Shown: positions 20,401 through 64,000 of the stretch, in pieces
Numbering within the stretch: position 1 is the first letter of the stretch
Layout: every line of letters starts with the position of its first letter
Origin: Hormiphora californensis
Lineage: Eukaryota; Animalia; Ctenophora
DNA: 64,000 bases
Direction of reading: 5' to 3'
Assembly (NCBI GenBank): GCA_020137815.1
Contig: CM035350.1
Location: 9,548,001-9,612,000 of the forward strand
The notes under the pieces: model-generated
What the model was told of the DNA's origin: nothing
The model's database searches: none
What the model saw: only the letters and a program-made list of their open reading frames with translations
Made by a program: the position numbers and the translations under genes

Positions 20401-21150
20401 TGCCCTGGCATTCAGTTCCGTTGGTAATGTCGTGGTAGCGGACCAGAAACTAAATAGAGTTTCAGTCTTTGCACCTGATGGACAGTTTGTGATGTGTTTT
20501 GGAACCACACCAAAAGATGTTAGTTGTCGTGAAATTAGGGATTTTCACCCAACTTTACCTGTTGTCTTTGAAGTTCACCTTTATCATTCTCTGAACGGGG
20601 AACCAGAAACTGCCCAAACTATTCTTCAACTAGCCACATCCATTATACATCCATTATATGCCAAACTAGCCACATTATATGCCAAACTCTCTTACAGGGA
20701 ACACCGAGGGAACACTCCTTAAAGGAACCTGTTGCCCTTGCCCTTGATGAGAAGGATTATGTTTATGTTGTGGATAAGGGAAACAATCGTGTACCAGTAT
20801 TCGATCATGAGGTAGGTTTTTAGTGTTGGTAGTTACCATCAGTGTTTCATCAGTTTTTTGAAAGTTTACTTATTTTTGTTTTTCGACTTCCCCTTTTTAT
20901 CAACCTTTTTTTTGTGACCTGATTCCCCTCCCCCCAGGGTCTTTTCTGAAGAGTTAGGCGGATGAATTTGAGATAAACTTCCTTAAAACCCAGTAGATAT
21001 ATCCCTTTTAAAGGGGTTTTCCCTGTTATTGGACACCCCCACCCAAATTTACCACCCTAGAGTGGTGATAGTAAATCTTGCAGACGAATTGTAGGCAGTA
21101 GTGTAGGGTGGAAAATTTGGTGGGATTATACCCTTCCCCAATTGCCCAGG
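17430..21150 (+). CDS. TRIM-NHL type E3 ligase (RING, B-box, NHL repeats); middle and 3' end degraded by poor sequence
   Basis: RING CEIC..PCLHSFCSSC..CVTC; B-box CFVC..CETCDE|EYCEGCGKVHQKMRATKDH (exon at 18549); NHL-like exons FKFGAKGTYPGQL..VVVADQKLNRVSVF and LKEPVALALDEKDYVYVVDKGNNRV. 3' end approximate. Confidence 0.75.
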
Positions 21151-21428
21151 GCCAGGGTTAATCGTGGAGGGTGGGTTTTTAGTGGTAGGAAAAGAGGTTA
21201 CAATGAAATATTTTAATTAATTTTGTTTGTTTTTAGGGGTTTTTACTGTTTGAATTTAATTTGTAATAAAGTTTTTGGAGTGTTATATTTTAAGTTTTAA
21301 TATTTTTGTTTTCAATAAAGTTTTTCTTTGTCATTTTATCGATTGATTGTTTTCCTCTCTCGTGTTTGTAGTTTAGTTTTACCCTCCTATGATATGACCC
21401 CTCACAAAACCTCCATTCCCAGTTAGTT

Positions 21429-23706: not shown

Positions 23707-26700
23707 GACAGACAGACAGAACCTCAGTAGTGTACGTACTGTGCGATGTAGATGTAAATGTAGAAGCTCTCGTAGTATTGGGAAGGGAAGACTGAGGCTG
23801 TAAATGTGTCCATTAGGATTACAAACATACTCGGCAAGTAAACCCTGTGTGGGAGATTAACATATTGGATGGTTACCTTCTAGAGTTTACTGGCTGGCGG
23901 CACGGACCCGATCTGAACGAGAATCAAAACGGGGTCTGGCAGATCTAACAAAACATTTAATGAGACTCAGTTAGAGTACTTCTGGGACCTACCAGATGTT
24001 AAGACCAAATATCATGAGATAGTAGGCGCCCTCTCTCGACACATCCGCATACATCTTCTTATAGTTTGTATGGGCACTTTGTAGGGTGAGAAGGGATATC
24101 AGGACCAGTACGGTCATTATATGAGCCTGACAGATAAACACCCCTGCTTTTCGTGATCCAGAGAGATCTGAAACAAGTAAACAACCAATCAGAACTCGTT
24201 ATTTAGGTCACGTGACTGGTTATCAGCCAATCAGGGACCAGTAATATTTCCTGATTCGGTCACCCCTGCTTTTCGTGATCCAGAGAGATCTGGAGAGATC
24301 AGGGGGTTAAGGAAATAAGATATCTGGGTAGAATACATGAAAGAACACATTGAAATTTCTAGGTATGCCTCCCAACCTATTTCTGATAAAGTGCCCGCTT
24401 CCACTGCGTCTGCTTCGTGTGGCGCTGTTTTGATGACGCACCATCCCAGTTTAGAGTCAAAACACAGGGAGCTTCTATCTGACTCGTGGAGAACGTCCGT
24501 CTTGCTACTTTCATAAAACTTAGTGTACAATATATCAACTGGAAATGGGGGATAGTTAGAACTAGGTGTACAATATATCAACTGGAAATGGGGGATGGTT
24601 AGAACTTGGTGTACAATATATCAACTGGAAATGGGGGATAGTTAGAACTAGGTGTACAATATATCAACTGGAAATGGGGGATAGTAAGAACTAGGTGTAC
24701 AATATATCAACTGGAAATGGGGGATAGTTAGAACTTGGTGTACAATATATCAACTGGAAATGGGGGATGGTTAGAACTAGGTGTACAATATATCAACTGG
24801 AAATGGGGGATGGTTAGAACTTGGTGTACAATATATCAACTGGAAATGGGGGGATGGTTAGAACTTGGTGTACAATATATCAACTGGAAAATGGGGGATG
24901 GTTAGAACTAGGTGTACAATATATCAACTGGAAATGGGGGATGGGGGTTTTGAAATTGGGGGGTACAATAATCAAAAAAATGGAAAAGGGGGGGAAATTT
25001 GAACTTGGGGTCCAAATTCAAAAGGAAATGGGGGTGGTTTTTAAATTTGGGGTTTCCAAAATACCAAAGGGGGAAAAGGGGGGTGGTTTTGAACTTGGTT
25101 TTTACCCAAAATATCAACGGAAAAAGGGGGGGGTTAGAACTTGGTGTAAAAATTATCAAATGGAAATGGGGGGGGGTTTTGAAAACTTTGGGGACCCAAA
25201 ATATCAACGGAAAAAAGGGGATGGTTTGAACTTGGGGGTTCCCAAAATTCAAATGGAAAAGGGGGGGTGGTTAGTAGAAATTGGGTTTTTACAATATATC
25301 AACTGGAAATGGGGGGGGGTGGTTAGAACTGGTGTCCAATTACAAATGGAAAAGGGGGGGTGTTTGAAATGGTTTTACCCTATATCAAATGGAAAGGGGG
25401 GAATTAGTTTGGAAAATTGGTGTAAATATATAAAATGGAAATGGGGGATGGTTTAGAATGGGGCAAAATTTTCAAGGGGAAAAGGGGGATAGTTTTGAAA
25501 TTGGTTTTAAAAATATATCAACTGGGAAAAGGGGGGGGTTAGAACTTGGTGTCCCAAAATATCAAGGAAAAAAGGGGGAATTTTTTGAAACCCAGGTTTT
25601 TTACAATAATCAAATGGAAAAAGGGGGAGGGGTTGAACCTTTGGGGACAAATATCAAATGGAAAGGGGGGTATTAGAATTGGTTTACCAAAATTTTCAAT
25701 GGAAAGGGGGATGGTTTAAAAACTTTGGGACAATAACAAAATGGAAAAGGGGGGGGGTTTTGAACTTGGTGTACCCAAAATACAACGGAAAGGGGGGGTA
25801 GTTAGAACTTGGTGTACAATATATTTTAAATGGAAAAGGGGGATGGTTTTTGAACTAGAGGGCAGTTTGGGGTTACCGTATATCAACTGGGGAAAGGGAA
25901 AAGGGGGAAATTGGGGGGGGGGGGGGGGGGCCAAAACCATTTTTTGTATGTTTGACGGAAAAAAAAAAGATTGCCACAAAAAAAAAAAAATACAAAAAAA
26001 AAAACAAAAAAGTACAAAAAAAAACAAAAAAATACAAAAAAAAATTAAAAAAAAGTTTTTAAGGGATTTACCAATTTTTGTTCGAAAATTTTTTCTGTTT
26101 TCCACCTATTTTACGCAAATTTTGCACAAAATATATACATATTTTACAAAAATGTAAGGGGATGCCCCAAAAACGCGGAGGGAAAAAAATTTTTCCCAAT
26201 CGCAATTTTTTACCCCGGGAAAAAAAGGAGGTCGGTTTGAACTTGACCGAATTTTGGGCAGGTCAATTTAGGGGAGGGCTGATTTAGGGGAGGTCTGAAT
26301 ACTAAGGGATGTGAAGGTTTATTCGGGTAAGGGTTTTTAGCGGAGGAGACGATAAGAGATAGGAAAGTGATTGGGGAAGAAAAGGAGGGTTCCCCCAAAA
26401 GATCCCTTTTTTTGGCTTTTTTTGGGGGACATTGTTCCGGGAAATTAGAGCCCCATACAATGGGAAAACTTTCTGAGTGGTGATAGGTATATGGGTGGAA
26501 AACGAAAAGAAACTTTTCCCCCCAATTTGTATCTCCTCTCTCTAATGATTGGCTTCCCCCAATAGGGGCTATAATCTCGTTTTCGTTCACACAGCTTTAA
26601 AAAGCTCCCCCGGGGCCCCGAATAAAATTTCCCGGGTTTTGTAAATTTGGGCCCGCCCTAAAAGACCTGCCCTAAAAACGACGGGGGCCAAAAACCCGAC

Positions 26701-29700
26701 CCCACCCAAATTCAGAATGCCCCCAATTCGCCCTGCCCTAAATTCAAATCGGGGTTCTCCCCAACCCGGAAAACCGGACCTAATGCAGGGAGGCGAGTGG
26801 GGAAGGGGCCCCTAACCAAACCCCGCCGACCCAAAAAATTTCAATATTTTCTTTTTTTTAAAAAGTGTAGGGAAATCTTTGCTTTTTAAAGGGATTTTGG
26901 TTTTTGCGCTGACAGGTAGAGTTGGGGGCTGATTTTCAAAAATAATACAAGATTTAATAATTATGAAGTTTGGGGGGAAATTGCCCATTTTTGCTGGGTT
27001 TTCTTTTCTCAAAGATTTGTTTTTCGGTGAATAAAAATTTTTTTTTCCATAGAAAAGGGGGCTTTTTAGAGGGAAGGTTCTACCCTGGAAAAAATTTTCA
27101 GTAGAAAAAACGGGGGGCCCCAGAGGGGGAAAAGGGCCCCCGGGAGCTTCGCCGATCGGGACTGGGAAAAGATCGGGGAAGGGTAGAGGGGGGAAGGGGG
27201 GGAGGGGGGGAGCGCAAAGGGAAAGGGGATCTCCTTTCTTCCGTCTCTCTTTTTTTCCCCCCCTAAAAGAAAAAAAGAGGGGAAAAAAAGAAAAGAAAGA
27301 AAAAAGAGGACCCTTTGCGAAAAGAGAGGGGGGGGTAAAAATAATAAAATAATATTTAAAGCTTGTATACCCCCAATACCCAGGGTACAGTCACAAAGGT
27401 AGGGTTTTTCCCAAAGTTGCTATCTTTAAACCCAAAGGCTTATATAGGGTGGAAAGCGATAAAAAACTTTCCCCGAAAACGTATTTTTAAACCCTCGTCT
27501 AAACCCCCTCCTGATTGGTCCCCGAAAATGTTTTCCCGGGGAGGGGGTTAGGGATGGGGAAGGAAAAAACCGATTTGAAAAAAATTTACCGAAAAGGTCT
27601 CATATCGTCTAACACCCTTTATTGGCTTTCCCCCCAATCCTGTTCATATCTTTATCGTCTCCCACCCCTAAAAAAGTTCCCCCCCAATCGCATTCACATG
27701 CTTTGACTCAGACCTGCCCTAAAAAAGACCCCCCCGCCCTAAATTTAGGGCCTTTCCCCAAATTCAGACCGGCCCCCAAAAACAGACCTGCCCTTTAAAA
27801 TTTTGGTCGAAGGTTTACCGACCTGCCCGAAAACTTTCTCGAATCGCAATTTCTTACCGAGAAAACTTTCTCGAATCGTAATTTCGAACCAAGAAATTTT
27901 TCTCGAATCGAAATTTGTAAGCTAGAAAATTTTCCCGAATCGTAATTTCTTACCGAGAAAATTTTCTCGAATCGTAATTTGGACCAAGAAATTTTTCTCG
28001 AATCGAAATTTGTAAGCGAGAAAATTTTCCCGAATCGTTAATTTCTTACCGAGAAAATTTTCTCGAATCGTAATTTCGAACCAAGAAATTTTTCTTGAAT
28101 CGACATTTCTAAGCGAGAAAATTTTTTCCGAATCGTAATTCTTACGAGAAAATTTTCTCGAATCGTAATTCGAACCAAGAAAATTTTTCTCGAATCGACA
28201 TTTCTAAGCGAGAAAAATTTTTCGAATCGCAATTTCTTACCGAGAAAATTTTCTCGAATCGTAATTTGGAACCAAGAAAATTTTTCTCGAATCGACATTT
28301 CTAAGCGAGAAAATTTTTCCGAATCGCAATTTCTTACCGAGAGAATTTTCTCGAATCGTAATTTCGAACCAAGAAAATTTTCTCGAATCGACATTTCAAA
28401 GCGAGAAAATTTTTCCAAATCGCAATTTCTAAGCGAGAGAAATTTTCCCGAATCGCAATTTCTTACCGAAAAATTTTTCTTGAATCGATATTTCTAGGAG
28501 AGAAAATTTTTCGAATCACAATTTCTTAGCGAAAATTTTTCTCTTATCGCAATTTTTTAGCGAGAAAGTTTTCTCGAATCGCAATTTCTTAGGGAGAAAG
28601 TTATCTCTAATGACAATTTCTTACCGAGAAAGTTTCTCGAATCATAACTTCTAACCGAGAAAATTTTCTCGAATCGTTATCTGAATCAATCATGTTTGCT
28701 TTTCCAAATTTCAAGAACATGTACTTTTTCATATATGTATTACATGTATAATGTAACACTTTTAGGGAATAAAATGCGTGACAATGGAACTAAAACGTTC
28801 CTAGGTGGTACATGGGCAAAAAAGGAACCCGTCTATGTATTATTTACACGTTTATCAGGCACCCATATACCCTTAAATATTTTGTATTTTTTTGTATTTT
28901 TTTGTATTTTTTGTACGGAAAAAAACAAGAATTTTGGATATTTTTTTGTATGGCCCGTACAAAAACATACAAAAAAATACAAAAAAAAATAGGTTGGAAC
29001 CCCCCCGGATAGTTAGAACTAGGTGTACAATATATCAACTGGAAATGGGGGATAGTTAGAACTAGGTGTACAATATATCAACTGGAAATGGGGGATGGTT
29101 AGAACTTGGTGTACAATATATCAACTGGAAATGGGGGATGGTTAGAACTTGGTGTACAATATATCAACTGGAAATGGGGGATGGTTAGAACTAGGTGTAC
29201 AATATATCAACTGGAAATGGGGATGGTTTAGAACTTGGTGTTACAATATATCAAACTGGAAATGGGGGATGGTTAGAACTTGGTGTACAATATATCAACT
29301 GGAAATGGGGGATAGTTAGAACTTAGGTGATACAATATATCAACTGGAAATGGGGGATGGTTAGAACTTGGTTGTACAATATATCCAACTGGAAATGGGG
29401 GATGGTTAGAATAGGTGTACAATATATCAAATGGAAAATGGGGGATGGTTAGAACTAGGTGTACAATATATCAATGGAAATGGGGGATGGTTAGAAACTT
29501 GGTGTACAATATATCAATGGAAAGGGGGATAGTTAGAACTAGGTGTACAATTATCAACTGGAAATGGGGATGATTAGAACCTTGTGTACAATATATCAAC
29601 TGGAAATGGGGGGGATAGTTAGAACTTGGTGTACCAATATATCAACTGGAAATGGGGGATGGTTAGAACTTGGTGTACAATATATCAACTGGAAATGGGG

Positions 29701-31523
29701 GATGGTTAGAACTTGGTGTACAATATATCAATGGCAATGGGGGATGGTTAGAACTTGGTGACAATATATCAACTGGAAATGGGGATGGTTAGAACTAGGT
29801 GGTACAATATATCAACTGGAAATGGGGGATGGTTAGAACTTGGTGTACAAGATATCAACTGGAAATGGGGGATGGTTAGAACTTGGTGTACAATATATCA
29901 ACTGGAAATGGGGGATGGTTAGAACTAGGTGTACAATATATCAACTGGAAATGGGGGATGGTTAGAACTTGGTGTACAATATATCAACTGGAAATGGGGG
30001 ATGGTTAGAACTTGGTGTACAATATATCAACTGGAAATGGGGGATGGTTAGAACTTGGTGTACAATATATCAACTGGAAATGGGGGATGGTTAGAACTAG
30101 GTGTACAAGATATCAACTGGAAATGGGGGATAGTTAGAACTTGGTGTACAATATATCAACTGGAAATGGGGGATGGTTAGAACTAGGTGTACAATATATC
30201 AACTGGAAATGGGGGATGGTTAGAACTTGGTGTACAATATATCAACTGGAAATGGGGGATGGTTAGAACTTGGTGTACAATATATCAACTGGAAATGGGG
30301 GATGGTTAGAACTTGGTGTACAATATATCAACTGGAAATGGGGGATGGTTAGAACTTGGTGTACAATATATCAACTGGAAATGGGGGATAGTTAGAACTT
30401 GGTGTACAATATATCACTGGAAATGGGGGATAGTTAGAACTTGGTGTACAATATATCAACTGGAAATGGGGGATAGTTAGAACTTGGTGTACAATATATC
30501 AACTGGAAATGGGGGATGGATAGAACTAGGGACAGTGTATCAACTGGAAATGGGGGATGGTTAGAACTTGGTGTACAATATATCAACTGGAAATGGGGGA
30601 TGGTTAGAACTTGGTGTACAATATATCAACTGGAAATGGGGGATGGTTAGAACTAGGTGTACAATATATCAACTGGAAATGGGGGATGGTTAGAACTTGG
30701 TGTACAATATATCAACTGGAAATGGGGGATGGTTAGAACTTGGTGTACAATATATCAACTGGAAATGGGGGATGGTTAGAACTTGGTGTACAATATATCA
30801 ACTGGAAATGGGGGATGGTTAGAACTTGGTGTACAATATATCAACTGGAAATGGGGGATGGTTAGAACTTGGTGTACAATATATCAACTGGAAATGGGGG
30901 ATGGTTAGAACTAGAGACATGGCGAAATGCAGTGTGAGCCGCACGAGAGACAGTGTGAGAGAAACATATTCGTCCAGGACGCGAACCAGTTCACTTACAG
31001 GTCATGTATGATATTGGAATTAGTATTGAAAACAGGAATGTGTTCTTCAGTCGTCTCCTCCAGCAATCGGCCGCCTCCATCTTTCTAAGTACCATGATTC
31101 TGTCATATGCAGCCAGGGAGAGGCTCAGAAGGGATGACTGCACTAGGAAGAGGTTGATGAAGTAGCTGGCATAACAAAACTTGCCCGAGTAGTTGACCGA
31201 TTGACACAACCGGACCATCGCTGGGATTACTATCATACTCACTGAAAATTGGAAGTAGTATTATGCTAACGACACACACACGCACACACACAAATCATAT
31301 TTCATTGACGATGTTGCGAGATAAATATAAAGGAAAGAGATTTACCTTTCAGTATGTCCGTAAGAGCGAACAGGGAGCTGTAATAAGTGACAACCCAATC
31401 AATGTGCCTCCTGAATCTCCTTAGCACATAGACCAGGGCTGCGTTAGATGCTATGGCACACAATAGCAGCATCACCAAGAGGGCCACCGTACCCGGGTGA
31501 GTCACACCACTCTTGTTTTTCAT
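23081..31523 (-). CDS. Rhodopsin-like class A GPCR, multi-exon
   Basis: TM1 [12 protein letters not shown]2 LFALTDIL (exon 31523-31345); TM3 LSLAAYDRI (exon ~31243-31000); exon 24538-24377; TM5/6 exon from 24167; TM7 [14 protein letters not shown]; stop at 23081. Some exons near 23.7-23.95 kb need frameshift correction. Confidence 0.75.
23444..23719. repeat. (GACA)n tetranucleotide microsatellite, intronic
   Basis: Direct reading. Confidence 0.97.
24171..24260 (-). mobile_element. Truncated short repeat/MITE flanked by a 32-bp direct duplication
   Basis: Reverse-complement homolog of 39122-39208; flanks 24139-24170 and 24261-24292 are identical. Confidence 0.9.
25913..29006. mobile_element. 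G/C-ended foldback-like element inserted in the satellite
   Basis: Left end poly-G plus (AAAAAATAC)n; right end (GTATTTTTT)n..GGTTGGAACCCCCCC. The left half is low quality, so boundaries are approximate. Confidence 0.55.
27831..28678. repeat. ~31-32-bp tandem repeat (TCGAATCG[C/T]AATTTCTTACCGAGAAAATTTTC) with a trimeric higher-order pattern
   Basis: Direct periodicity. Confidence 0.92.
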
Positions 31524-38873: not shown

Positions 38874-41800
38874 TGTCCCCACGGTATTCTGGTGGTCCCG
38901 AATCCTGATAATGGGATGGCCTGCTAGAAAACTACGAATCTCTCAAAAGTAACGTCCTACCTGAGATTGTGATCGCAAGAAGAATGGCAGTGATTCTCCC
39001 CAGGCACATGAGGCATTTTATCAGCACCAATAGACCGTATCCAATAACACTTAGGCTGGCTTTATCGTAACTAGTAAACGTTATCAGAAGTTATACTTTG
39101 TCGAGGTCATACCCTAGAGATCAGGAACCGACCGAATCAGGAAATACTGGTCCCTGATTGGCTGATAACCTGTCACGTGACCTAAATAGCGAGCTCTGAT
39201 TGGTTGTTTACTTTGTCGAGGTCATACCCTAGAGATGCTCAGAACGAGGGTCTCATACAAACTAGACAATATCTGCTAGTAAGTTACTTGCATCACGCTG
39301 AATACTTAGTAAGTATTCATTGCGATGCCTGACCAAACTTCAACAGACTTCACCAGAAAAGTGGATAGATCAACACAGGGATCACCCCCTCAACATGAGT
39401 ACCTTTGCTTGTAAAGGGATTTCTGGTAAAGCGCTCGACAATACTTTGTATTTGTTGAGTACCCTTTACTCTTTACAACTCTGACAGGTGAATCAACTCA
39501 CCTGGCTGCACGATGCTCGTTGATGTAACTTGTCATGCTCCACACGACACTAAAGAACGAGATAACCACCGAGAGATAGGTGTACCACTGGGTGTCTATC
39601 TGGGTATGTTTCACGATGATGTACAGCTGCAGTAGAAGCTGGGGTGTCGCCTCTAACGCCCCCTCGAACCTAGCAAAGTGTGAGGTAGAGCTGTGGTGAA
39701 AATATTTTTCCCTTCAGCGACTCAGCTATAAAATTAAAAAGATAAACCTACCAATCGTAAAAAGGCCGCATCTCGTCTGCCGTGATAAAGTTCCAATAAA
39801 TCTTTATTAAAGTAGACCTCCTTTATACCCTTCTCTGCGGCTTCCTTTACAAATGCACCGTAGCTTGGTTTTAACCGGGACCTCTTGTTACGTATCCTGT
39901 TAAAGAAATCGTTATTGATTGTACATTATGACGGATATTATTTTGGCAGCGAAGCTGCCAACTTTGTCGGAGACTGCGTCGCTGGCGCACCACGTACAGG
40001 GTATAGCGCGACGTGCCCAAGATATTACTATGAAAAATACGACTTGACTGAATGAATAATGAATGATTTAATAGACTAACGCCGGATCCAGCCTAAAGGT
40101 TTTCATGTTCCTCGACTTTTTTAGGTTTGCCAGTGAATATCTGCTAAAGATTGTTTGAGGTGTTGCCTTAGCAACCGACACTGTTAACAGAAAAATGGGA
40201 TTTTGGTGCTAAGTGTTGTCCTCCTTAACCCTTCATACACGTAAAGACAGAGTGAGAGAGCGAGAGAGCGAGAGAGAGACAGAGAGACGACGATCGACGA
40301 GAGCACCGAGAGAAGAGGAACGAAGACCCCGAGACTGACGCGAGCACCGAGAGAGAGGAGAGCACCATCGGACCGCAGAGGCCACGAGAGATGAAGAACG
40401 GAACGAGAGAGAGCAGAGACGAGAGGGATCGACGGACGGAGAGAGAGAGACCGAGAGAGAGCGAAAGGACACGCCAGGACGAGAACATGAAGGAGAGACA
40501 CAGAACATTAAGACGAGAGAGAGAACGAAAAAACTAACACTGCCGTGACGGACGCAGAGAGAGAGAGAGAGAAACCGAAGAGACGAGAGATGAGACCGCG
40601 AGAAACAAAACAACGCACTACGAGAGAGAGATGAGAGATCGGGACGGCGCACACCCAGCCAACCCCCCCCACCCCCCCAACAACCCTTCTCTGCCCCCGA
40701 CAACTATCCCGAACTAACAACCCTCGTTCTACCGCCCTTCCATATCCTCTCCCCAAATCCAACCGAGGAGAGAGGAGAGAGAGAGGGAGAGAGACGAGAG
40801 AAGGGGAAGTGCTGAGCCCAATGAAGTGGGGGGTATTCGTAACCCTGATTCTTAAGTCACGGTATTTTATGATAACTGATAAGAAAGAATTTCTGTATGC
40901 AAGGTCGGCCAGTACCGATTCTGAAGCTCTACTCATTTGACTCTTATTCAGAAAAACTAAATAGATATACCGGTGAGAGATGTAATTGAATGTACTGACG
41001 GTAGAAACCTGAAGTATAGAGGATGGGGCTGACGATTCAAGAATTACCATGTCTCCCTCCCTCTCTCTCTCTCTCTCTCTCTCGACCGTTCTCAGAGCGG
41101 CTCATTTCGGGCAGTGTAACGCGTTTTAATTTGAGATCCTGACTGGGCATTCTGATTATGCTTTGACCCACCATAACTCTTACTTTCTTCTACTTTCTTC
41201 TTTGTAATAATATGTTGCTCTGCTTTCTTCTGATCCTTGGTGGCACCCTCGCACAAGACCCCTGTGATGGCAACTATACTTTCTATAATGGATCTACCGC
41301 ACACAAGGGAGTTTCAGATTCTGTTTCATGGGATTGGGGCAGTGACACGGCATGTAACCTCCGCTCGGAGGAGGGGAAGCTGCTAAACACAACCTGTGGC
41401 AGGTGTGATGTACGATTTTTAGTTCAAGATGTTTGGTATCGGTTTAACAGTCCATGGACGAAACTCGTGGAAGTTCCAGACACGTTTTGTGATACTTTCA
41501 ACAACGATACAAATATACAAAATATGTATGTGGATGTATGTAACGCACCAAGTCAGTTACTCTTGGCTCCGAACAGTACAGACGGTTTATACAGAATAAT
41601 ATCAACAGGCTTTGGAAACGTTGACAAACCGTGTTTGTTATTTCCAAGTTTACAAATTGAAAGAAAGGATTGCAACGACTTTTAGATTTACAAACTCCTA
41701 GATGACCTAACACCGTTTGAGGTAAGAAATATAAATGTCTTGTATCAAAATAATTTAACTGATAAAGCCATTATCATATCATAAATATTTTTTAGTTTAT

Positions 41801-48762: not shown

Positions 48763-50177
48763 CATGTGTGTGTTTGTGTGTGCGTGAGAGTGCAAGAGGG
48801 AATGTTAGTGTAAGTTTTTGGGCATCTGTGTTTCAGTGATTTCTGAGAGTGTTTGTTAGTGTGCAGGGAGGATGTGGGTTTGTGTCTGAGCATGTGCATT
48901 CCGCTATTTTTAACTTATTATTCATTAATCATAATCAACTAACTTATTAACTTAATATCATTAATCATTATTTATACTCTGTTTATCTCCCAGTATATCT
49001 ACAGCCTATATTTTATATATAGTATCTGCAGTGGCTTAATCCTATTAACTTACAAAAAGAAGTGATATGTATTAATTTATATTGATACAAGATTTAATAA
49101 TAATAATAATAATAGCCCTAACCCTAAAAAACCGTTTGTCAGCACTCCCAAAACACCCAGATTTTAACGCTGGCCGAGCGGTGCGGGCGCTCTGGGTGTA
49201 ACGACTGTGTAATCACTGTAAAGACTGTGTAAACGCTGTGTAAATACTGAACTTTTTTAGGGATCCCTATTACGATCTGGGTGTTTCGTGGCCTGTTTAC
49301 AGGTGCGCTGTGTGCTGCCAAAAAAGTTGGTTCACTAAAATAAAATGGCTCTAACCGCCAAACCACTCAATCGTTTTTGCTAGTTCAAAGTTTATCTGGT
49401 AGGAAATGTCAAGGCCTAACCCAAACCCAAACCCCAACCCTAACCCTAACCCTGCTTTTGCCCTAACCCTAAAAAACCGTTTGTCTGCACTCTCGAAACA
49501 CCCAGATTTTAACGCTGGCCCATTTTTAATTTTGCGAACCAAGCCAAGCTAAAAAAAAGTTTAAGTTCAGTGCGTAAATTTAAAAATAAAGTCCAATTTT
49601 TTATTTAAGCGACAGGCCGCCGCGCATCAAAATGCAGCGCTTGAAATCGATTTCCGGTTCCTGATAAGCTAGCGACTTTTTATTGGTGCCATTGGAAAGA
49701 TAAAAATTTTATCTTTCCAACGCAGCCAGAATCAAGTCTTTATCTTATCAGGAACCGGAGATATGACCAATTAACTAATTGAGTGCGTGGCGGCCTGTCG
49801 CTTAAATAAAAAATTCGACTATATAAAGTCCGATGTTTAATAAAGTGAACCGCAAGTGCGTGGGAAAGTATTTTCCCGGTTGTTTCGATCATATCTCTAG
49901 CTCCTGATAAGATAAAGACTTGATCCTGCATGCGTTGGAAAGAGAAAAATGTTATCTTTCCAATGCGACCAATGACAAGTCTCTATCTTATCAGGAACCG
50001 GATTAAGCACACGCAAATGGAATTAAAGTCGGATTTTTTGAAACTGTCACCCCCCTTTTCGTGCGTGGAATGTTTTTGCGCGTCACATCACATGTTAACG
50101 TGTCGTGTGCGCGTCAAAATTGATAAATTTCACATGCACGGTCATTTTGGGGTGACAGTTTCAAAAAATCCGACTAC

Positions 50178-51728
50178 GGGCCACGGATTGTTGGTCATGG
50201 TTAGCGAGGTGGTGCGTCAAAACGGTGATAGTTGTGAGAATAAAAATTATGGGAGCACTCTGGATCAATTCCTTGGTAACTTTTTCCATAATTTTTTGTC
50301 AAAAATTCGAAAATTCATTTTTCATTCCTTCATTCATTTCTCGTTCATTCATGATGTGAGCATCCTAATTTTCCATCATTATGCTATTTTTCTTTGGCTT
50401 GAATTTATCTTTCCAATGAGCACCATGAAAATGAAATTGAAGCACCAGGTCACTCAGCAGTTGAGAAAATGTTCATGCATGATTTTGGCTCTTTTTGCGA
50501 CTTTCAAACAGATGTATCACGGCTACCTTTCGTTCAATCTTCTTAAAACTTTGGGAAAACATTGGATAAGCAAAGATCTTTGCTCACAAGAAAAATCAAG
50601 GCCGAAGATCAAAGTTCATTTTTCATTTTTGTTAGTTCATTCCGTTCATTCAGGAACCAACATCCCTAAAGTGATGAAAAGGTTTGGGTTTTGTTTGGCC
50701 CATGTCCTGCAATGACAGAGAGGTGTAATAGCGTGTTTCCGGGCTAGCTTGTGGGTGTCCATGTGATCATGATGATATCTGACACCTTTTCTGAGCCATA
50801 ATTAAGGGATTTTCTCAAACTCAAGCATGTAACTTGGTTTTTCTGCGATTAGTACCGTGCAGCAATGTTATGAGATCTCATAAAACCTCAAAAATGATGA
50901 TTAGCTCAATGAAATGAGTTGATTTATGATGTAATTGTTCGTTTCGTTCAATTTGACATCGGTTTTAATCTTTTCAATCATAAATCAACTCATTTCATTG
51001 AGCTAATCATCAGTTGAGGTGTTATGAGATCTCATAACATTGCTGCACGGTACTAATCGCAGAAAAACCAAGTTACATGCTTGAATTTGAGAAAATCCCT
51101 TAATTATGGCTCAGAAAAGGTGTCAGATATCATCATGATCACATGGACACCCACAAGCTAGCCCGGAAACACGCTATTACACCTCTCTGTCATTGCAGGA
51201 CATGGGCCAAACAAAACCCAAACCTTTTCATCACTTTAGGGATGTTGGTTCCTGAATGAACGGAATGAACTAACAAAAATGAAAAATGATCTTTGGCCTT
51301 GATTTTTCTTGTGAGGAAAGATCTTTGCTTATCCAATGTTTTCCCAAAGTTTTAAGAAGATTGAACGAAAGGTAGCCGTGATACATCTGTTTGAAAGTCG
51401 CAAAAAGAGCCAAAATCATGCATGAACATTTTCTCAACTGCTGAGTGACCTGGTGCTTCAATTTCATTTTCATGGTGCTCATTGGAAAGATAAATTCAAG
51501 CCAAAGAAAAATAGCATAATGATGGAAAATTAGGATGCTCACATCATGAATGAACGAGAAATGAATGAAGGAATGAAAAATGAATTTTCGAATTTTTGAC
51601 AAAAAATTATGGAAAAAGTTACCAAGGAATTGATCCAGAGTGCTCCCATAATTTTTATTCTCACAACTATCACCGTTTTGACGCACCACCTCGCTAACCA
51701 TGACCAACAATCCGTGGCCCACCTTGTA
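50178..51728. mobile_element. ~1.55-kb palindromic (foldback) Tc1/mariner-type non-autonomous element 1
   Basis: ~750-bp arms that are near-identical inverted repeats; right end CACCTTG-TA; left end clipped next to a MITE. Confidence 0.85.
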
Positions 51729-52666
51729 TATGTTATTATTAATGCGCACCCCCGGTTCGCATTATTAAAAATCGGACTTTACTGCGTGGCTCCGCTGTTG
51801 CAGCGTTTTGGAAAACCTTTTTGCCGCCGCGCGGCATTCAAATCAGTCAAGTGCCTTTTTTTATTTTCGTCCCTGGAGGCTTGAAAAGCGCTGCCTTATC
51901 CCGCGCTGCGGCGTTTGCCAACTGGATCTGGAGGCTGGACCTTGGAATGCCCTGGCCGCTGCAGCCCTGCAAGGGGCCTGCAGCGTATTCCAACCCTGGA
52001 CCCCGCTTGTGGGGGGTTTGACCCCCACTCCCCCCTAAGTCCTGACCCGGGCTGGCACCCAAGGCCCCTGGACGCACAGACCGTACACCCTGTGCGGCCA
52101 CGGGCCAACGTTAAAATCTGGAATTTGCACTTACGGTTTTTAGAGTTAGTGCTAAAGTAGGATTCGGGTTAGGGTTATTAGAGTAATTTTAGGGTGCTTT
52201 TTGGCAGCGTGCACCTGTAAACAGGCAGATCGTAACGCCACCCAGATGACAGATCGTAACGGCGCTCTTTTTTACTGTGAAGTCATGGCTCACCTAAGGA
52301 CGAGGTCAAGCTACTCCCTAGACCTTGCTATTTTTAATTTTTTTCAACTGTTCACCCCGGCCCTCCCCCTGGAATTGTTTTGCGTGCTTATCATACGCCC
52401 GAGTTTGGGGTGGACAGTTGAAGAAATAGACTTTGTCAATTGTCACTGCACCACATGGTTTAGACCGCACCGCCCTGGTTTTCGCAATGATTATTTGTGT
52501 GATATCCCTGGTCCCTGTATAAAATAGAGTCTTAATTCCAAGTGCATTGGACAACGAATTTCAAGACCTTTCAAACGCCCCGGGATGAAATTTCTACCTC
52601 ACCAGGAACTGGAGTTATTAGTAGAAACGTCTAAAAATGGGGAGGGGGAGCTGGAGATAATATATA

Positions 52667-54193
52667 CAGGGTGTCCCATATATTCTCCGGGTCGGTTGGC
52701 GAGCTGTCACGCAAAAACGGTGATAGTTGTGTGAAAACAAACTGCGGGAGTGTGCTGGATTAATTCCTTCCTAACTGATGGCTTTGTTTTAAAATTAAAT
52801 TTCAAAAGTTCATTTTTCATGAATGAACATTGCTGCCGTTCATTCATGAATTCTGAAATATTGTTTACCTTGAGTAAGTAACTTTTCTTTGGCTCGCAAT
52901 TATCTTTCCAATGAGCACCATAAAACTCAAATTGAAGCACCAGGTCACATGACAGTTGAGAAAATGAACATGCATGATTTTGGCTCTTTTTGCGACTTTC
53001 AATCGGCTGTATCACCGCTACCTTATCTTCAATCTTTTTGAAACTTTGGGTGAACATTGGATAAGCAAAGATCTTTGCTCACAAGAAAAATCAAGGTCAA
53101 AACTCAAAGTTCATTTTTAAGTTTTGGTAGTTCATTCCACTCATTCAGGAACCAACAACCCTAAAGTGATGAAAAGTGTTGGATTTTGTTTGGCCCATGT
53201 CCTGCAATGACAGAGAGGTGTAGTGACGTGTTTCAGAGCTAGTTAGTGGGTGTCATGTGATCATGGTGATATCTGACACCTTCGTTGAGTAATAATTAAG
53301 GGATTTTCTCGAATTCAAGCATGTGATTTGGGTTTTCTGCGATTGGTATCGTGCAGCAATGTTAAGAGATCTCATAGCCCCTCGAAAATGATGGTTAGTT
53401 CAATGAAATGAGTTGATTTATTATCGAAAATGGTCGTTGAGTTCAATGTGGCATCGGTTTTAATCTTATTGAGCATAAATCAACTCAATTCATTGAACTT
53501 TTCATCATTTTCGAGGTGCTATGAGATCTCTCAAGATTGCTGCACGATAAGGAAAATCCCTTAATTATGGCTCAGAAAAGGTGTCAGATATCGTCATGAT
53601 CACATGGCACCCACTAACTAGCTCGGAAACACGTTACTACACCTCTCTGTCATTACAGGACATGTACCAAGCAAAATCCAACACTTTTCATCACTTTAGG
53701 GTTGTTGGTTCCTGAATGAGTGGAATGAACTACCAAAACTTAAAAATGAACTTTGAGTTTTGACCTTGATTTTTCTTGTGAGCAAAGATCTTTGCTTATC
53801 CAATGTTCATCCAAAGTTTCAAAAAGATTGAAGATAAGGTAGCGGTGATACAGCCGATTGAAAGTCGCAAAAAGAGCCAAAATCATGCATGTTCATTTTC
53901 TCAACTATCATGTGACCTGGTGCTTCAATTTGAGTTTTATGGTGCTCATTGGAAAGATAATTGCGAGCCAAAGAAAAGTTACTTACTCAAGGTAAACAAT
54001 ATTTCAGAATTCATGAATGAACGGCAGCAATGTTCATTCATGAAAAATGAACTTTTGAAATTTAATTTTAAAACAAAGCCATCAGTTAGGAAGGAATTAA
54101 TCCAGCACACTCCCGCAGTTTGTTTTCACACAACTATCACCGTTTTTGCGTGACAGCTCGCCAACCGACCCGGAGAATATATGGGACACCCTG
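52667..54193. mobile_element. ~1.53-kb palindromic Tc1/mariner-type non-autonomous element 2
   Basis: TA-CAGGGTGTCCC...GGGACACCCTG-TA; ~740-bp inverted arms; homologous to element 1. Confidence 0.9.
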
Positions 54194-54195
54194 TA

Positions 54196-54237
<42 letters not shown>

Positions 54238-57437: not shown

Positions 57438-58192
57438 AAGAGGGATGCAACAAGATGCAATTGAGAAGAGAGTCATATGTTTTCATGTAATATTTTGTGT
57501 GTGTATCGCGCTCTAACTTGTGTGAATTCTCAATATTGGACCCTGTAAATGTGGAATTGAATATAACTTATTTCATTCTAGAGATAGATTTCCCCATATC
57601 ATCTCAAACATCACCAAAAATATGTACAGTTTCAAGATTGGGTTATCATGTGTGTTGTATATAAGAGTTTGGGTAAATTGTAAACAAAATTAACGACCGT
57701 TAGAACTATTTGACATGTTTGTGCGTCAAGAGATATTATAATTGGACGGGGAAGATGTTTAAAAAATATATATTTTTGCTGCTATATTTTGCAACTTTAT
57801 TTTCTCCACTGATCACCGAACAGATGAATATATCTCACTCGAAATATAGCTGTTCTTATTTCTTAACAAACCGAATATATTTGTAGTCGTCACTTTTCAA
57901 AACACTTCCGATTAAATGGCAGAAAACTGAAATGTATAAAACAAAAATCACAATCTTGAAAGATCATATTATTTTACAAGCACTTGTTCGTGCTGGGATC
58001 TTGAACAAACAACTTATTTCATATTAATGCACACAGAATCCAGCCCATATTTTACACGGTCAATATCGCTCACACTCACACACAAAAAGAGAGTTAACAC
58101 ATGTTCACAGAAGAATTCAAAGGTCCATACAGACAGATCACACACACAAATCAATCCAGATCATAATGACATTGTTTGTAAGTTGCATTTTT

Positions 58193-59060
58193 TCATTGGA
58201 GGTTCACAATTTCATCCAACTGCTTGGTATACCGCTCCAAATCTTTAGCAGATTTCTTGCTCTTGTAGGAGCGGAAGTAGAGCTGAAGGAGCTCCGAATA
58301 TTCCTTTTTGGTAAACCGTTTCTCCTGTTCAACAATTCTTCGTAGTATCTCCTGGGGGATGGAGCTGTGTTAGATTCACGAGGGGACGGAAACAGTATAA
58401 CTGGAAATAAATGATACATTTCTCAAAACAATGTTCTAGGCCATTGTGCCTTACCTCGGGTTTCAGATAAAGCAGCTCGTAGTAGAACCGTGCCCTTTCC
58501 AACTCTAGCTCACAAGTCAGGGTTATGTTTGTTAAGTTCTGTTGGAGAGCCAAGATGTTCCTTGACATTTTCTTGATTCCCGCACTATTTATCTCCTTTA
58601 TATTGCAGGCGTTATCGATAACTATCGCACTCATAACGTACCCCAGACCCTCAAATAGGAACCTGAGAAGGAAATAGGAACCTGAGAACCTGAGAAGGGG
58701 AACCTGAGAAGGTTGTTGAGTAAGGGGAACCTGAGAAGGGGTTACCCGTTACCGGTTAAATCTAAATTCAAGATTTGAGAAGGGGTTTCAAAATTCATTG
58801 ATCATCTGATAATGCAGATACTGAAAACTGTTTATCGATCGGAGCGCGCAATCGGAGTGCACGAGAACTGTGGTCAGAGCATTGGCCTGACAGTTTCCAG
58901 ATGGAACAGTGTCACTATCTAGAGAGGGATCTATGTGTTACTTGGTATGTGTGGCAGGAAGATAATCCTTGATCTTCTCCTCCATTTCATAATAAAACTT
59001 GTTGAGAAGTGTTACGCCAGTGTCCGGGTCTGAGTTCTCAGTGTCCGGCTTATAATCTTG
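58193..59060 (-). CDS. EXOC4: Exocyst complex component 4 (Sec8), last three exons
   Basis: Exons 59060-58942, 58662-58455 and 58351-58193; FLFEGLG..GIKKMSRNILALQQNLTNIT..ARFYYELLY. Confidence 0.93.
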
Positions 59061-62000
59061 CTGTGGGGGGAGAGAGGGGAGAGGGGTAATACAACAAGGG
59101 CTTATAGTCTTGCTGTGGGGGGGGGTAATACAACAAGGGCTTATAGTCTTGCTGTGGGGGGGGGGGGGGGGTAATACAACAAGGGCTTATAGTCTTGCTG
59201 TGGGGGGAGGGGGTAATACAACAAGGGCTTATAGTCTTGCTGTGGGGGGAGAGAGGGGTAATACAACAAGGGCTTATAGTCTTGCTGTGGGGGGAGAGGG
59301 GTAATACAACAAGGGCTTATAGTCTTGCTGGGGGGGGGAGGGGTAATACAACAAGGGCTTATAGTCTTGCTGTGGGGGGAGAGGGGTAATACAACAAGGG
59401 CTTATAGTCTTGCTGTGGGGGGGGGGGGGTAATACAACAAGGGCTTATAGTCTTGCTGTGGGGGGGAGGGGTAATACAACAAGGGCTTATAGTCTTGCTG
59501 TGGGGGGAGAGGGGTAATACAACAAGGGCTTATAGTCTTGCTGTGGGGGGGGGGGGGTAATACAACAAGGGCTTATAGTCTTGCTGTGGGGGGGGAGGGG
59601 GTAATACAACAAGGGCTTATAGTCTTGCTGTGGGGGGAGAGGGGTAATACAACAACGGGCTTATAGTCTTGCTGTGGGGGGGAGAGGGGGTAATACAACA
59701 AGGGCTTATAGTCTTGCTGTGGGGGGAGAGGGGTAATACAACAAGGGCTTATAGTCTTGCTGTGGGGGGGGGGAGGGGGTAATACAACAAGGGCTTATAG
59801 TCTTGCTGTGGGGGGGGGGGGGGGTAATACAACAAGGGCTTATAGTCTTGCTGTGGGGGGAGAGGGGGTAGGGGGTAATACAACAAGGGCTTATAGTCTT
59901 GCTGTGGGGGGAGAGGGGGGGTAATACAACAAGGGCTTATAGTCTTGCTGTGGGGGGGGGGAGGGGTAATACAACAAGGGCTTATAGTCTTGCTGTGGGG
60001 GGAGAGGGGGTAATACAACAAGGGCTTATAGTCTTGCTGTGAGGGAGGGGGGGTAATACAACAAGGGCTTATAGTCTTGCTGTGGGGGGGAGAGGGGTAA
60101 TACAACAAGGGCTTATAGTCTTGCTGTGGGGGAGGGAGGGGTAATACAACAAGGGCTTATAGTCTTGCTGTGGGGGGGAGGGGGGGTAATACAACAAGGG
60201 CTTATAGTCTTGCTGTGGGGGGGGAGAGGGGTAATACAACAAGGGCTTATAGTCTTGCTGTGGGGGGGTAATACAACAAGGGCTTATAGTCTTGCTGTGG
60301 GGGGGAGGGGGTAATACAACAAGGGCTTATAGTCTTGCTGTGGGGGAGAGGGGGTAATACAACAAGGGCTTATAGTCTTGCTGTGGGGGGAGGGGGGTAA
60401 TACAACAAGGGCTTATAGTCTTGCTGTGGGGGGGAGGGGGTAATACAACAAGGGCTTATAGTCTTGCTGTGGGGGGGGGGGGAGAGGGGTAATACAACAG
60501 GGCTTATAGTCTTGCTGTGGGGGGAGGGGGGTAATACAACAAGGGCTTATAGTCTTGCTGTGGGAGAGAGGGGGTGATACAACAAGGGCTTATAGTCTTG
60601 CTGTGGGGGGAGAGGGGGTAATACAACAAGGGCTTATAGTCTTGCTGTGGGGGGGAGGGGGTAATACAACAAGGGCTTATAGTCTTGCTGTGGGGGGAGA
60701 GGGGGTAATACAACAAGGGCTTATAGTCTTGCTGTGGGGGGAGAGGGGGTAATACAACAAGGGCTTATAGTCTTGCTGTGGGGGGAGAGGGGTAATACAA
60801 CAAGGGCTTATAGTCTTGCTGTGGGGGGGAGGGGGTAATACAACAAGGGCTTATAGTCTTGCTGTGGGGGGAGGGGGTAATACAACAAGGGCTTATAGTC
60901 TTGCTGTGGGGGGGAGAGGGGTAATACAACAAGGGCTTATAGTCTTGCTGTGGGGGGAGGAGGGGGTAATACAACAAGGGCTTATAGTCTTGCTGTGGGG
61001 GGGAGGGGGTAATACAACAAGGGCTTATAGTCTTGCTGTGGGGGGAGAGGGGGTAATACAACAAGGGCTTATAGTCTTGCTGTGGGGGGAGAGGGGGTAA
61101 TACAACAAGGGCTTATAGTCTTGCTGTGGGGGGAGAGGGGTAATACAACAAGGGCTTATAGTCTTGCTGTGGGGGGAGAGGGGGTAATACAACAAGGGCT
61201 TATAGTCTTGCTGTGGGGGGGAGAGGGGGTAATACAACAAGGGCTTATAGTCTTGCTGTGGGGGGGAGAGGGGGTAATACAACAAGGGCTTATAGTCTTG
61301 CTGTGGGGGGAGAGGGGTAATACAACAAGGGCTTATAGTCTTGCTGTGGGGGGGAGAGGGGGTAATACAACAAGGGCTTATAGTCTTGCTGTGGGGGGAG
61401 GGGGTAATACAACAAGGGCTTATAGTCTTGCTGTGGGGGGGAGAGGGGGTAATACAACAAGGGCTTATAGTCTTGCTGTGGGGGGAGAGGGGTAATACAA
61501 CAAGGGCTTATAGTCTTGCTGTGGGGGGGGAGGGGGTAATACAACAAGGGCTTATAGTCTTGCTGTGGGGGGAGAGGGGGTAATACAACAAGGGCTTATA
61601 GTCTTGCTGTGGGGGGGAGAGGGGTAATACAACAAGGGCTTATAGTCTTGCTGTGGGGGGAGGGGGTAATACAACAAGGGCTTATAGTCTTGCTGTGGGG
61701 GGGAGGGGGTAATACAACAAGGGCTTATAGTCTTGCTGTGGGGGGGAGGGGGTAATACAACAAGGGCTTATAGTCTTGCTGTGGGGGGGAGAGGGGTAAT
61801 ACAACAAGGGCTTATAGTCTTGCTGTGGGGGGGGAGGGGGTAATACAACAAGGGCTTATAGTCTTGCTGTGGGGGGAGAGGGGTAATACAACAAGGGCTT
61901 ATAGTCTTGCTGTGGGGGGAGAGGGGGTAATACAACAAGGGCTTATAGTCTTGCTGTGGGGGGAGAGGGGGTAATACAACAAGGGCTTATAGTCTTGCTG

Positions 62001-64000
62001 TGGGGGGAGAGGGGTAATACAACAAGGGCTTATAGTCTTGCTGTGGGGGGGGAGGGGGTAATACAACAAGGGCTTATAGTCTTGCTGTGGGGGGGAGAGG
62101 GGGTAATACAACAAGGGCTTATAGTCTTGCTGTGGGGGGGAGAGGGGGTAATACAACAAGGGCTTATAGTCTTGCTGTGGGGGGGAGAGGGGGTAATACA
62201 ACAAGGGCTTATAGTCTTGCTGTGGGGGGGAGGAGGGGTAATACAACAAGGGCTTATAGTCTTGCTGTGGGGGGAGAGGGGGTAATACAACAAGGGCTTA
62301 TAGTCTTGCTGTGGGGGGAGAGGGGTAATACAACAAGGGCTTATAGTCTTGCTGTGGGGGGAGAGGGGAGGGGGTAATACAACAAGGGCTTATAGTCTTG
62401 CTGTGGGGGGAGAGGGGGTAATACAACAAGGGCTTATAGTCTTGCTGTGGGGGGAGAGGGGTAATACAACAAGGGCTTATAGTCTTGCTGTGGGGGGGAG
62501 GGGGGTCATACAACAAGGGCTTATAGTCTTGCTGTGGGGGGGAGAGGGGTAATACAACAAGGGCTTATAGTCTTGCTGTGGGGGGAGAGGGGTAATACAA
62601 CAAGGGCTTATAGTCTTGCTGTGGGGGGGAGAGGGGGTAATACAACAAGGGCTTATAGTCTTGCTGTGGGGGGAGAGGGGGGGTAATACAACAAGGGCTT
62701 ATAGTCTTGCTGTGGGGGGAGAGGGGTAATACAACAAGGGCTTATAGTCTTGCTGTGGGGGGAGAGGGGTAATACAACAAGGGCTTATAGTCTTGCTGTG
62801 GGGGGAGAGGGGGTAATACAACAAGGGCTTATAGTCTTGCTGTGGGGGGAGGGGGGTAATACAACAAGGGCTTATAGTCTTGCTGTGGGGGGAGAGGGGT
62901 AATACAACAAGGGCTTATAGTCTTGCTGTGGGGGGGAGAGGGGGTAATACAACAAGGCTTATAGTCTTGCTGTGGGAGAGGGAGGGGGTAATACAACAAG
63001 GGCTTAATAGTCTTGCTGTGGGGGGAGAGTGGTAATACAACAAGGGCTTATAGTCCTTGCTGTGGGGGGGGAGGGGGTATATACAAAAGGGCTTATAGTC
63101 TTGCTGTGGGGGGAGAGGGGTAATACAACAAGGGCTTATAGTCTTGCTGTGGGGGGAGGGGGTAATAAAACAAGGGCTTATAGTCTTGTGTGGGGGGGAG
63201 GGGGGTACAACAAGGGCTTATAGTCTTGCTGTGGGGGGAGGGGGGTAATACAACAAGGGCTTATAGTCTTGCGTGGGGGGGGGGGACAGGGCTTTAGTGG
63301 GGTGGGGAGGGGGGTAATCAACAAGGGCTTATAGTCTTGCTGTGGGGGGAGAGGGGTAATACAACAAGGGCTTATAGTCTTGCTGTGGGGGGGGTGGGAG
63401 GGGTAATACAACAAGGGCTTATAGTCTTGCTGTGGGGGGGGGGGTATACAACAAGGGGTTATAGTCTTGCTGTGGGGGAGAGGGGTATACAAAGGGTATA
63501 GTCTTGGTGGGTGGGGGGGGGAGGGGTAATACAACAAGGGTTATAGTCTTGCTGTGGGGGGGGAGGGGGGGTTAAACAAGGGCTTATAGTCTTTGTGGGG
63601 GGAGGGGGTGGTGAATACAACAAGGGCTTATGTTGTGTGGGGGGGGGGATACAAAAGGGCTTATAGTTTGGGGGGAGGGGTAATACAACAAGGGCTTATA
63701 GTCTGCTGTGGGGGGGGAGGCGGGGGTAATAAAAGGGGCTATAGTCTTGCTGTGGGGGGAAGGGGGTTAATACAACAAGGGCTTATAGTCTTGCTGTGGG
63801 GGGAGAGAGGGTTAATACAACAAGGGCTTATAGTCTTGCTGTGGGGGGGGGTAAGGGTAATACAACAAGGGCTTATAGTTTTTGGGGGGGGTGAGGGGTA
63901 TACAACAAGGGCTTATAGTCTTGCTGTGGGGGGGAGAGGGTGATACAACAAGGGCCTTATAGCCTTGCTGTGGGGGGAGAGGGGTAATGACAACAAGGGC
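59048..64000 (-). repeat. ~42-45-bp satellite in an EXOC4 intron, runs off the window end
   Basis: Unit GTAATACAACAAGGGCTTATAGTCTTGCTGT plus a variable G-rich tract; roughly 110 units by length. Confidence 0.97.

What the first reader, a model, noticed from the sequence alone, without database searches (positions are those of the whole stretch)
59048..64000. EXOC4 intron satellite is about 110 tandem copies of the exon's own 3' splice site
Seen: on the gene strand each unit is TATTAC + C-rich pyrimidine tract + ACAG|CAAGACTATAAGCC. The true exon starts ACAG|CAAGATTATAAGCC at 59060 (one synonymous change). A conserved housekeeping gene therefore has more than 4.9 kb of decoy acceptors upstream of the real one. 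Units are stop-free in the exon frame (QDYKPLLYYP..PPQ), so 42- or 45-nt units could be added in frame, although the nearest unit is 52 nt. Inference: this needs strict exon definition or last-AG selection, or it yields an isoform ladder and NMD whose level depends on repeat number.
Basis: partly seen in the sequence, partly recalled or inferred. Interest (0 to 1): 0.8.

Follow-up and report, generated by a model that had tools for sequence, protein, structure and literature searches.

The report
Splice-acceptor "mirage" array in comb-jelly EXOC4
An intron of a comb-jelly housekeeping gene (EXOC4) holds more than 100 head-to-tail copies of its own splice acceptor plus the first 14 bases of the next exon, a repeat type already described in lancelets, and the cell likely splices only to the last copy, so this is a very large but probably harmless example of a known kind.

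Summary
Observation confirmed. On the minus strand, 59061-64000 is a 43-nt minisatellite (113.6 copies, cut by the window end). Each unit is the intron tail plus the exon head of ctenophore EXOC4 (Pleurobrachia bachei or a very close relative): 103 intact ACAG|CAAG decoys precede the real acceptor at 59060. Short-read contigs of two samples and an independent gene model hold the unit, so it is not an assembly artefact. The in-frame isoform ladder fails: 0 of 103 decoys reach the exon in frame without a stop. The 'synonymous change' is a polymorphism; another allele's exon head equals the unit. No RNA covered the junction. This matches the amphioxus 'mirage' minisatellites; human F7 and ABCA7 are donor-side analogues. 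A second large acceptor array lies in a neighbouring gene. Best reading: a tolerated tandem expansion in which only the last copy, followed by a full exon and donor, is used, with leaks likely removed by NMD (inferred). The scan noted mirages before, in this genome and in others. New member of a known kind; interest 0.22.

The parts
59061..64000 (-). Acceptor 'mirage' minisatellite: about 114 copies of a 43-45 nt unit (exon head 14-15 nt + linker + putative branch site + C-rich tract + CAG); 103 intact ACAG|CAAG decoys; continues past the window end
   Evidence: unit depth far above exon depth in runs X2 and X5
59061..59112 (-). Last unit, carrying the real acceptor's tract: 52 nt, 22-nt tract with 5 T in the window (89 parsed decoys: 7-19 nt, 0-3 T); 45 nt and decoy-like in one X6 contig
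   Evidence: record 18
58942..59060 (-). EXOC4 coding exon (119 nt, QDYKPDTENS...PATHTK), real acceptor CAG|CAA at 59060, donor AA|GTAACA
   Evidence: six of six listed exon differences in runs X2/X6 are synonymous third positions
58663..58941 (-). 279-nt intron with four extra TTCTCAG|GTTC acceptor copies (first exon-side base 58730, 58703, 58689, 58681) and a high-copy element near 58852-58893
58455..58662 (-). EXOC4 coding exon (FLFEGLG...LYLKPE), 82% identical to Bolinopsis and Mnemiopsis EXOC4
58193..58351 (-). Last EXOC4 coding exon to the TGA (3' end read from the sequence)
29007..30912 (-). Second case, other gene (P0158): 5' block of a 43-nt acceptor array, 35 intact CCCATTTCCAG|TTGATAT copies; first copy (30887) lies 111 nt from the donor at 30998
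24523..25848 (-). Second case, 3' block of the same array; 10 intact copies including the real acceptor at 24538

Best explanation
A 43-nt piece spanning the 3' splice site of an EXOC4 intron is repeated head to tail more than 100 times, and the spliceosome likely uses only the last copy because only that copy is followed by a full exon and a nearby donor, with stray use of upstream copies predicted to give premature stops that would be cleared by nonsense-mediated decay. Shown: the array, its make-up, the gene, the premature stops, the unit in two samples, alleles whose exon head equals the unit. Inferred: origin by local duplication then slippage or unequal exchange (G-rich template strand, G4Hunter mean 1.24, may help); last-copy choice by exon definition; NMD; neutrality.
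For: Unit = intron tail + exon head. Homologs align LRK-Q(D/E/Q)YK, placing the exon start at 59060. The exon is under selection in carriers: 6 of 6 listed differences are synonymous, which implies working splicing. All 103 decoys give a stop 3-124 codons on, none in frame and open. One X6 contig shows an allele whose acceptor matches the decoys from the tract through exon base 15, so local sequence cannot be what marks the real site there. Same layout in a second gene: 44 decoys, all with stops within 4-36 codons, real exon after the last copy, and at a donor (31 nt x5) and an acceptor (25 nt x2) of EXOC4 in another, unnamed ctenophore-like contig L002. Lancelet mirages are reported not to disturb splicing (PMC3087553, PMC3902484 passages); F7 uses only the exon-adjacent donor copy (PMC1557585 abstract and discussion).
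Against: No RNA read or contig crosses the junction: X7 and X8 cover only the 3' end of the gene, X10 laid nothing; the metagenome pattern scan found 0. The upstream exon and the 5' end of the array are outside the window and no genome is held. Five other introns here are 103-322 nt and the first copy of the second array would make a 111-nt intron, so intron definition would be expected to pick the wrong, first copy; early globin experiments found use of the proximal duplicate, others the opposite (as summarised in PMC1557585). In the window's allele the real tract is longer and more T-rich than any parsed decoy, so site strength may contribute. ABCA7 shows that such arrays can leak.
Confidence: 0.74

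Rival explanations
1. Leaky decoys as a dosage dial: a measurable share of transcripts use upstream copies and are destroyed by NMD, so EXOC4 output falls as the array grows (ABCA7-like).
For: All decoys give premature stops upstream of two further junctions. Nearest decoys would make exons of only 171, 210 and 256 nt. ABCA7: 12 to about 427 units, one-unit retention and exon skipping, length-dependent (PMC5954066 passages). CAG expansions create used acceptors (10.1101/2023.10.16.562581, abstract only). Unit-to-exon depth differs between samples (about 200 in X2, about 74 in X5; rough).
Against: No RNA evidence either way here. Lancelet mirages and F7 pseudo-sites reported silent. Exon under purifying selection in carriers.
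Confidence: 0.13
2. Functional in-frame isoform ladder adding 14-15 aa proline-rich modules to EXOC4.
For: A single unit is stop-free in the QDYK frame; in the X6 allele the nearest unit is 45 nt and would add 15 aa without a stop (worked by hand).
Against: 0 of 103 decoys in frame and open in the window; only 22 of 103 intervals are 42 or 45 nt and the mode is 43-44; short-read contigs show the same spread of lengths (gaps of 6-10 nt against the 52-nt unit), so there is no sign of selection for multiples of three; five ctenophore homologs have no insert there.
Confidence: 0.03
3. The array is removed stepwise (recursive splicing or micro-exons using GT words inside the unit).
For: Each unit has two GT words (CTT|GTTGTA, GTT|GTATTA); real donors here are varied, including GTTGGG and GTAACA. 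The small array in the next intron does have AG|GT junctions.
Against: The EXOC4 unit has no AG|GT (it reads AG|CA); micro-exons of 17 or 20 nt would shift the frame.
Confidence: 0.04
4. The real acceptor is the AAG four bases downstream (CAAG|AT, phase 1) rather than CAG|CAA; the array would still be a mirage.
For: The upstream exon is outside the window; either join could give LRK-QDYK.
Against: The seven other acceptors mapped here all end in CAG; CAG is the first AG after the tract.
Confidence: 0.04
5. Assembly artefact (a short duplication inflated by noisy long reads).
For: Sequence degrades in the last kb and around the second array; X6 shows the unit at only about 1,100 depth against 200-535 for the exon, with 3 records laid.
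Against: Unit depth 83,331 against 416 in the exon in X2, and 25,422 against 345 in X5, a second sample; 190, 109 and thousands of short contigs; tandem unit-to-unit junctions in contigs (table 5c); the independent model P0001 reads through a unit (ARLQALVLLPPPIPQ-QDYKP).
Confidence: 0.02

Closest known systems
Amphioxus 'mirage' minisatellites (Adh3; globin BflGb6 acceptor type, BflGb9 donor type; troponin C; PGBD5). PMC3087553 and PMC3902484, passages read; the Adh3 paper (Canestro et al. 2002, PMC117041) is not held and is known only through them
   Same: Tandem repeat whose unit spans an intron-exon boundary; BflGb6 repeats the 3' end of an intron plus the 5' part of the exon; extra copies sit in the intron; alleles differ; boundary unit differs from interior units; unit size in range (Adh3 10-72 bp).
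   Different: Ctenophore, not cephalochordate; at least 114 copies against 3-6 for BflGb6; units almost identical; correct splicing shown by RT-PCR there, not shown here.
Human F7 IVS7 37-bp VNTR (PMC1557585; abstract and discussion read)
   Same: First monomer holds the exon-intron junction; 5-9 identical sites; only the exon-adjacent copy is used; position, not sequence, decides.
   Different: Donor side, few copies.
Human ABCA7 intron 18 25-bp VNTR (PMC5954066; passages)
   Same: Multi-kb C-rich VNTR (12 to about 427 units) whose unit carries a splice site; occasional one-unit retention gives a frameshift.
   Different: Donor side; leak measured and length-dependent; none measured here.
Intron gain by duplication of an AG|GT segment (ATP2A1; PMC3265369, abstract and outline only)
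   Same: Local duplication across splice signals changes gene structure.
   Different: Creates a new intron from exonic AGGT (recalled detail); here an existing intron is lengthened and the unit lacks AG|GT.

Membership tests
Mirage minisatellite | Head-to-tail repeat whose unit spans an intron-exon boundary of the host gene | tested here: met
Mirage minisatellite | Minisatellite-sized unit (10-160 bp in the lancelet cases) | tested here: met
   43-45 nt; range
Mirage minisatellite | Extra copies lie in the intron; the terminal copy is the authentic boundary | tested here: met
   Homology continues only after the last copy
Mirage minisatellite | Homogenised interior units, atypical boundary unit | tested here: met
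   82 of 88 intervals in 59061-63000 share four skeletons; last unit 52 nt with the longest tract; in the X6 allele the last unit is typical
Mirage minisatellite | Copy-number instability between alleles or cells | tested here: inconclusive
   Depth ratios differ between samples and the last unit differs between alleles, but contig depth is no copy number
Mirage minisatellite | Normal mRNA splicing is not disturbed | not testable with these tools
   No RNA run covers the junction; indirect only: 6 of 6 exon differences synonymous
Recursive-splicing ratchet array / AG|GT intron-gain duplication | AG immediately followed by GT in the unit | tested here: not met
   Unit reads ACAG|CAAG
Coding tandem repeat giving in-frame isoforms | Units a multiple of three and an open frame to the exon | tested here: not met
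   0 of 103; 22 of 103 intervals are 42 or 45 nt
Splicing-regulatory VNTR (ABCA7 type) | Isoform share or expression changes with array length | not testable with these tools
   Needs RNA from genotyped animals

The most novel reading that the evidence does not exclude
Pleurobrachia, an animal with mostly short introns, ignores over a hundred upstream acceptors that in some alleles match the real one from the tract through exon base 15, even when the first one would make a normal 111-nt intron; ctenophore splicing would then be strictly exon-defined, and these hypervariable arrays would act as heritable dials of essential-gene dosage through copy-number-dependent leak and NMD.
Probability: 0.12. 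Interest if true: 0.5.

Novelty: new member of a known kind. Interest (0 to 1): 0.22.

Why it matters
It is a natural, extreme test of 3' splice-site choice: position against sequence, with about 100-200 near-identical acceptors in an essential gene of an early-branching animal. It extends lancelet mirages to ctenophores, which my searches did not find in print. It also explains a wrong public gene model (P0001 reads a unit as coding) and how short introns can grow to several kb. It does not point to a new mechanism.

Tried and rejected
Whole genome: none held, so the upstream exon, the array's far end and dispersed copies of the unit could not be checked. RNA: of 10 runs listed, 8 were laid; X7 and X8 cover only 57700-58266 plus a high-copy element, X10 and X9 laid nothing; none of this is evidence for or against decoy use. 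Metagenome pattern scan 0 hits; protein-pattern scan gave 2 loci of 120 candidates, neither from this species. Pfam found nothing for the two short EXOC4 exons; identity rests. The exon-A search returned only P0001, so no transcript-derived protein of this species shows the join; P0001 and P0158 are gene models whose RNA support I do not know. Literature searches returned 0; the Adh3 mirage paper is not held. Junction census: 3 of 15 junctions in two genes (3 of 8 acceptors, 0 of 7 donors) have a local 14-mer copy, against 4 of 1181 exon-interior positions (two junctions were misplaced and corrected in 64); both genes were picked for their arrays, so this is no genome-wide rate. Rejected: in-frame ladder, AG|GT ratchet, artefact. 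No structure or complex prediction was run.
Full report
Observation. The minus strand from 64000 to 59061 is a tandem array. TRF gives period 43, 113.6 copies. A script counted 104 ACAG|CAAG sites, 103 of them upstream of the real exon start at 59060; 89 of the 103 intervals are 42-46 nt and the nearest is 52 nt. Each unit is the first 14-15 nt of the exon, a TTGTTG linker, TATTA, a C-rich tract and ACAG. The unit head occurs nowhere else in the window. The array runs off the window, and its last kb is noisy (5 of 15 intervals match the four commonest skeletons, against 82 of 88 elsewhere). No genome is held.

Gene and organism. The exon at 58455-58662 is 100% identical to P0001 and 82% to Bolinopsis and Mnemiopsis EXOC4 (9 hits of 41 candidates). 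P0001 is a EukProt Pleurobrachia bachei model, 98% identical over the exon next to the array, so the window is that species or a very close relative (inference). Other ctenophores read LRK-Q(D/E/Q)YK at this point, which places the exon start at 59060. Junctions 58942/58662 and 58455/58351 were the best-scoring joins. An AAG four bases downstream cannot be excluded without the upstream exon, but the seven other acceptors mapped here all end in CAG.

Is it real DNA? Yes. In run X2 the exon has depth 416 (two contigs, 195 and 221) and the unit peaks at 83,331. In X5, another sample, the unit bin has 25,422 against 345 in the next exon. These ratios, about 200 and about 74, are rough: the tool warns that contig depth is no copy number, and X6, from the same sample as X5, had only 3 records laid and shows about 1,100. 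Short-read contigs show unit-to-unit junctions and the same spread of tract lengths, so length variation is not only long-read error. P0001, from another assembly, reads ARLQALVLLPPPIPQ before QDYKP, which is one unit read in another frame.

One X6 contig (162 nt, depth 202, 58943-59111) carries the unit's letters at exon codons 2 and 5, a 7-nt shorter tract and a change at 59082. Worked by hand, that allele's real acceptor matches the decoys from the tract through exon base 15, and its last unit is 45 nt. In the window's allele the real tract is the longest and most T-rich (22 nt, 5 T, against 7-19 nt and 0-3 T in 89 parsed decoys), so site strength may help there but not in all alleles. All six exon differences listed for X2 and X6 fall on third codon positions and are synonymous: the exon is under selection in animals that carry the array, indirect evidence that it is spliced correctly.

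What decoy use would give. 101 of 103 decoys hit a stop before the real acceptor and the two nearest hit one just inside the exon; none is in frame and open. Two junctions follow, so these would be NMD targets under the usual rule (general knowledge; NMD in ctenophores not tested). Only the X6 allele allows one in-frame step of 15 aa. The ladder is not supported. The unit has no AG|GT, and its two GT words would give frame-shifting micro-exons.

Not a one-off. A second gene in the window (P0158) has an intron of 6,460 nt as assembled that holds 45 intact copies of its acceptor in two blocks; the real exon follows the last (24538), the first would give a 111-nt intron, and all 44 decoys meet a stop within 4-36 codons. 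About 3 kb of poor sequence lies between the blocks. The next EXOC4 intron has four extra short acceptor copies. In all, 3 of 15 junctions in these two genes have a local copy against 4 of 1181 exon-interior positions; the genes were chosen for their arrays, so this is no rate. L002, an unnamed contig encoding a ctenophore-like EXOC4, has a 31-nt donor repeat (5 copies) and a 25-nt acceptor repeat (2 copies).

RNA. No run covers the junction: X7 and X8 lie on the 3' end only, X10 and X9 laid nothing, and a metagenome pattern scan found nothing. Which acceptor is used is therefore inferred.

Mechanism. Likely a short duplication across the acceptor, expanded by slippage or unequal exchange; the template strand is G-rich (G4Hunter mean 1.24; 54% of 25-nt windows over 1.2 against 1.6% in the rest), which may favour instability (inference). 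The last copy is likely chosen because it alone is followed by full exon sequence and a donor 119 nt away. Against this, five neighbouring introns are 103-322 nt, where pairing across the intron would favour the first copy, and early duplicated-site experiments disagreed (as summarised in PMC1557585, discussion read). That exon sequence next to a duplicated acceptor decides its use (Reed and Maniatis 1986) is recalled; one search did not find it.

Known relatives. Earlier notes of this scan gave the lead 'mirage', which I checked. PMC3087553 (passages) describes tandem duplications of the 3' end of an intron plus the 5' part of the exon in amphioxus BflGb6 (6 and 3 copies), cites Adh3 (10-72 bp units, unstable), and reports no effect on splicing; PMC3902484 (one passage) agrees. 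Donor-side analogues are F7 (5-9 copies, only the exon-adjacent one used) and ABCA7 (12 to about 427 units, measurable leak; passages). PMC10078293 (passages) and PMC8527503 (12 of 19 passages) showed no such case; the latter reports 13% tandem repeats in Hormiphora. Searches showed no ctenophore mirage by title and abstract start; most subscription papers and all supplements were unseen. Four membership features are met, one is inconclusive and one untestable.

Verdict. A real, unusually large mirage in a ctenophore essential gene: new member of a known kind, interest 0.22. The scan has noted the same class in other pieces of this genome and in other animals; those notes are unchecked and are not counted as support. 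The most novel open reading, strict exon definition plus a copy-number-dependent NMD dial, has probability about 0.12 and would merit 0.5.

Noticed in passing
window 24523-25848 and 29007-30912 (-): Second large acceptor mirage (43-nt unit, 45 intact copies) filling an intron of a membrane-protein gene (P0158); the unit's CTAAC-type motif also supplies an in-frame stop for most decoys.
   Followed up: yes
window 24167-24289 (-): A 29-nt copy of an exon head behind a second CAG, separated from the real acceptor by an 87-nt piece also found near 39130-39215, where it lies between direct repeats too; looks like an insertion that duplicated the exon start.
   Followed up: partly
window 58852-58893: Very high-copy short element inside the 279-nt EXOC4 intron (bin depth about 2.6 million in X5).
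   Followed up: no
L002:747-901 and 1836-1888: Donor repeat (31 nt x5) and acceptor repeat (25 nt x2) at EXOC4 junctions in another ctenophore-like contig; also an 11-nt x21 repeat just before an acceptor (358-591).
   Followed up: partly
window 59048-59112; P0001: The public model P0001 reads a mirage unit as coding and lacks the last exon seen here; mirages can mislead gene prediction.
   Followed up: partly
window 2320-2492 (+): 35-nt repeat with CTAAC and TTTCTAG motifs that may be another acceptor repeat; no gene mapped.
   Followed up: no
window 4408-5754 and 9727-10928 (+): Two related 358-367 aa ORFs each preceded by a 7-nt repeat, retrotransposon ORF1-like by eye; the second sits inside a gene with HHxHH-like motifs (8802-11430).
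   Followed up: no
window 12315-17185 (+): Large gene ending in a SpoU methylase-like stretch (Pfam E 2e-6, below cut-off), interrupted at about 13.4-14.7 kb by a piece flanked by (ACCGA)n.
   Followed up: no
window 34788-37923 (-): Cysteine-rich receptor gene ending in a 7tm_1 match (E 6e-8), with many frame breaks that may be assembly errors.
   Followed up: no
window 49900-54200: Two pairs of kb-long inverted repeats (matching ORFs 49924-50715 with 51270-51761 region, 52707-53078 with 53782-54153), foldback-like.
   Followed up: no
window about 18900-21300, 24900-28700, 63000-64000: Stretches of homopolymer-rich, apparently poorly polished sequence.
   Followed up: partly
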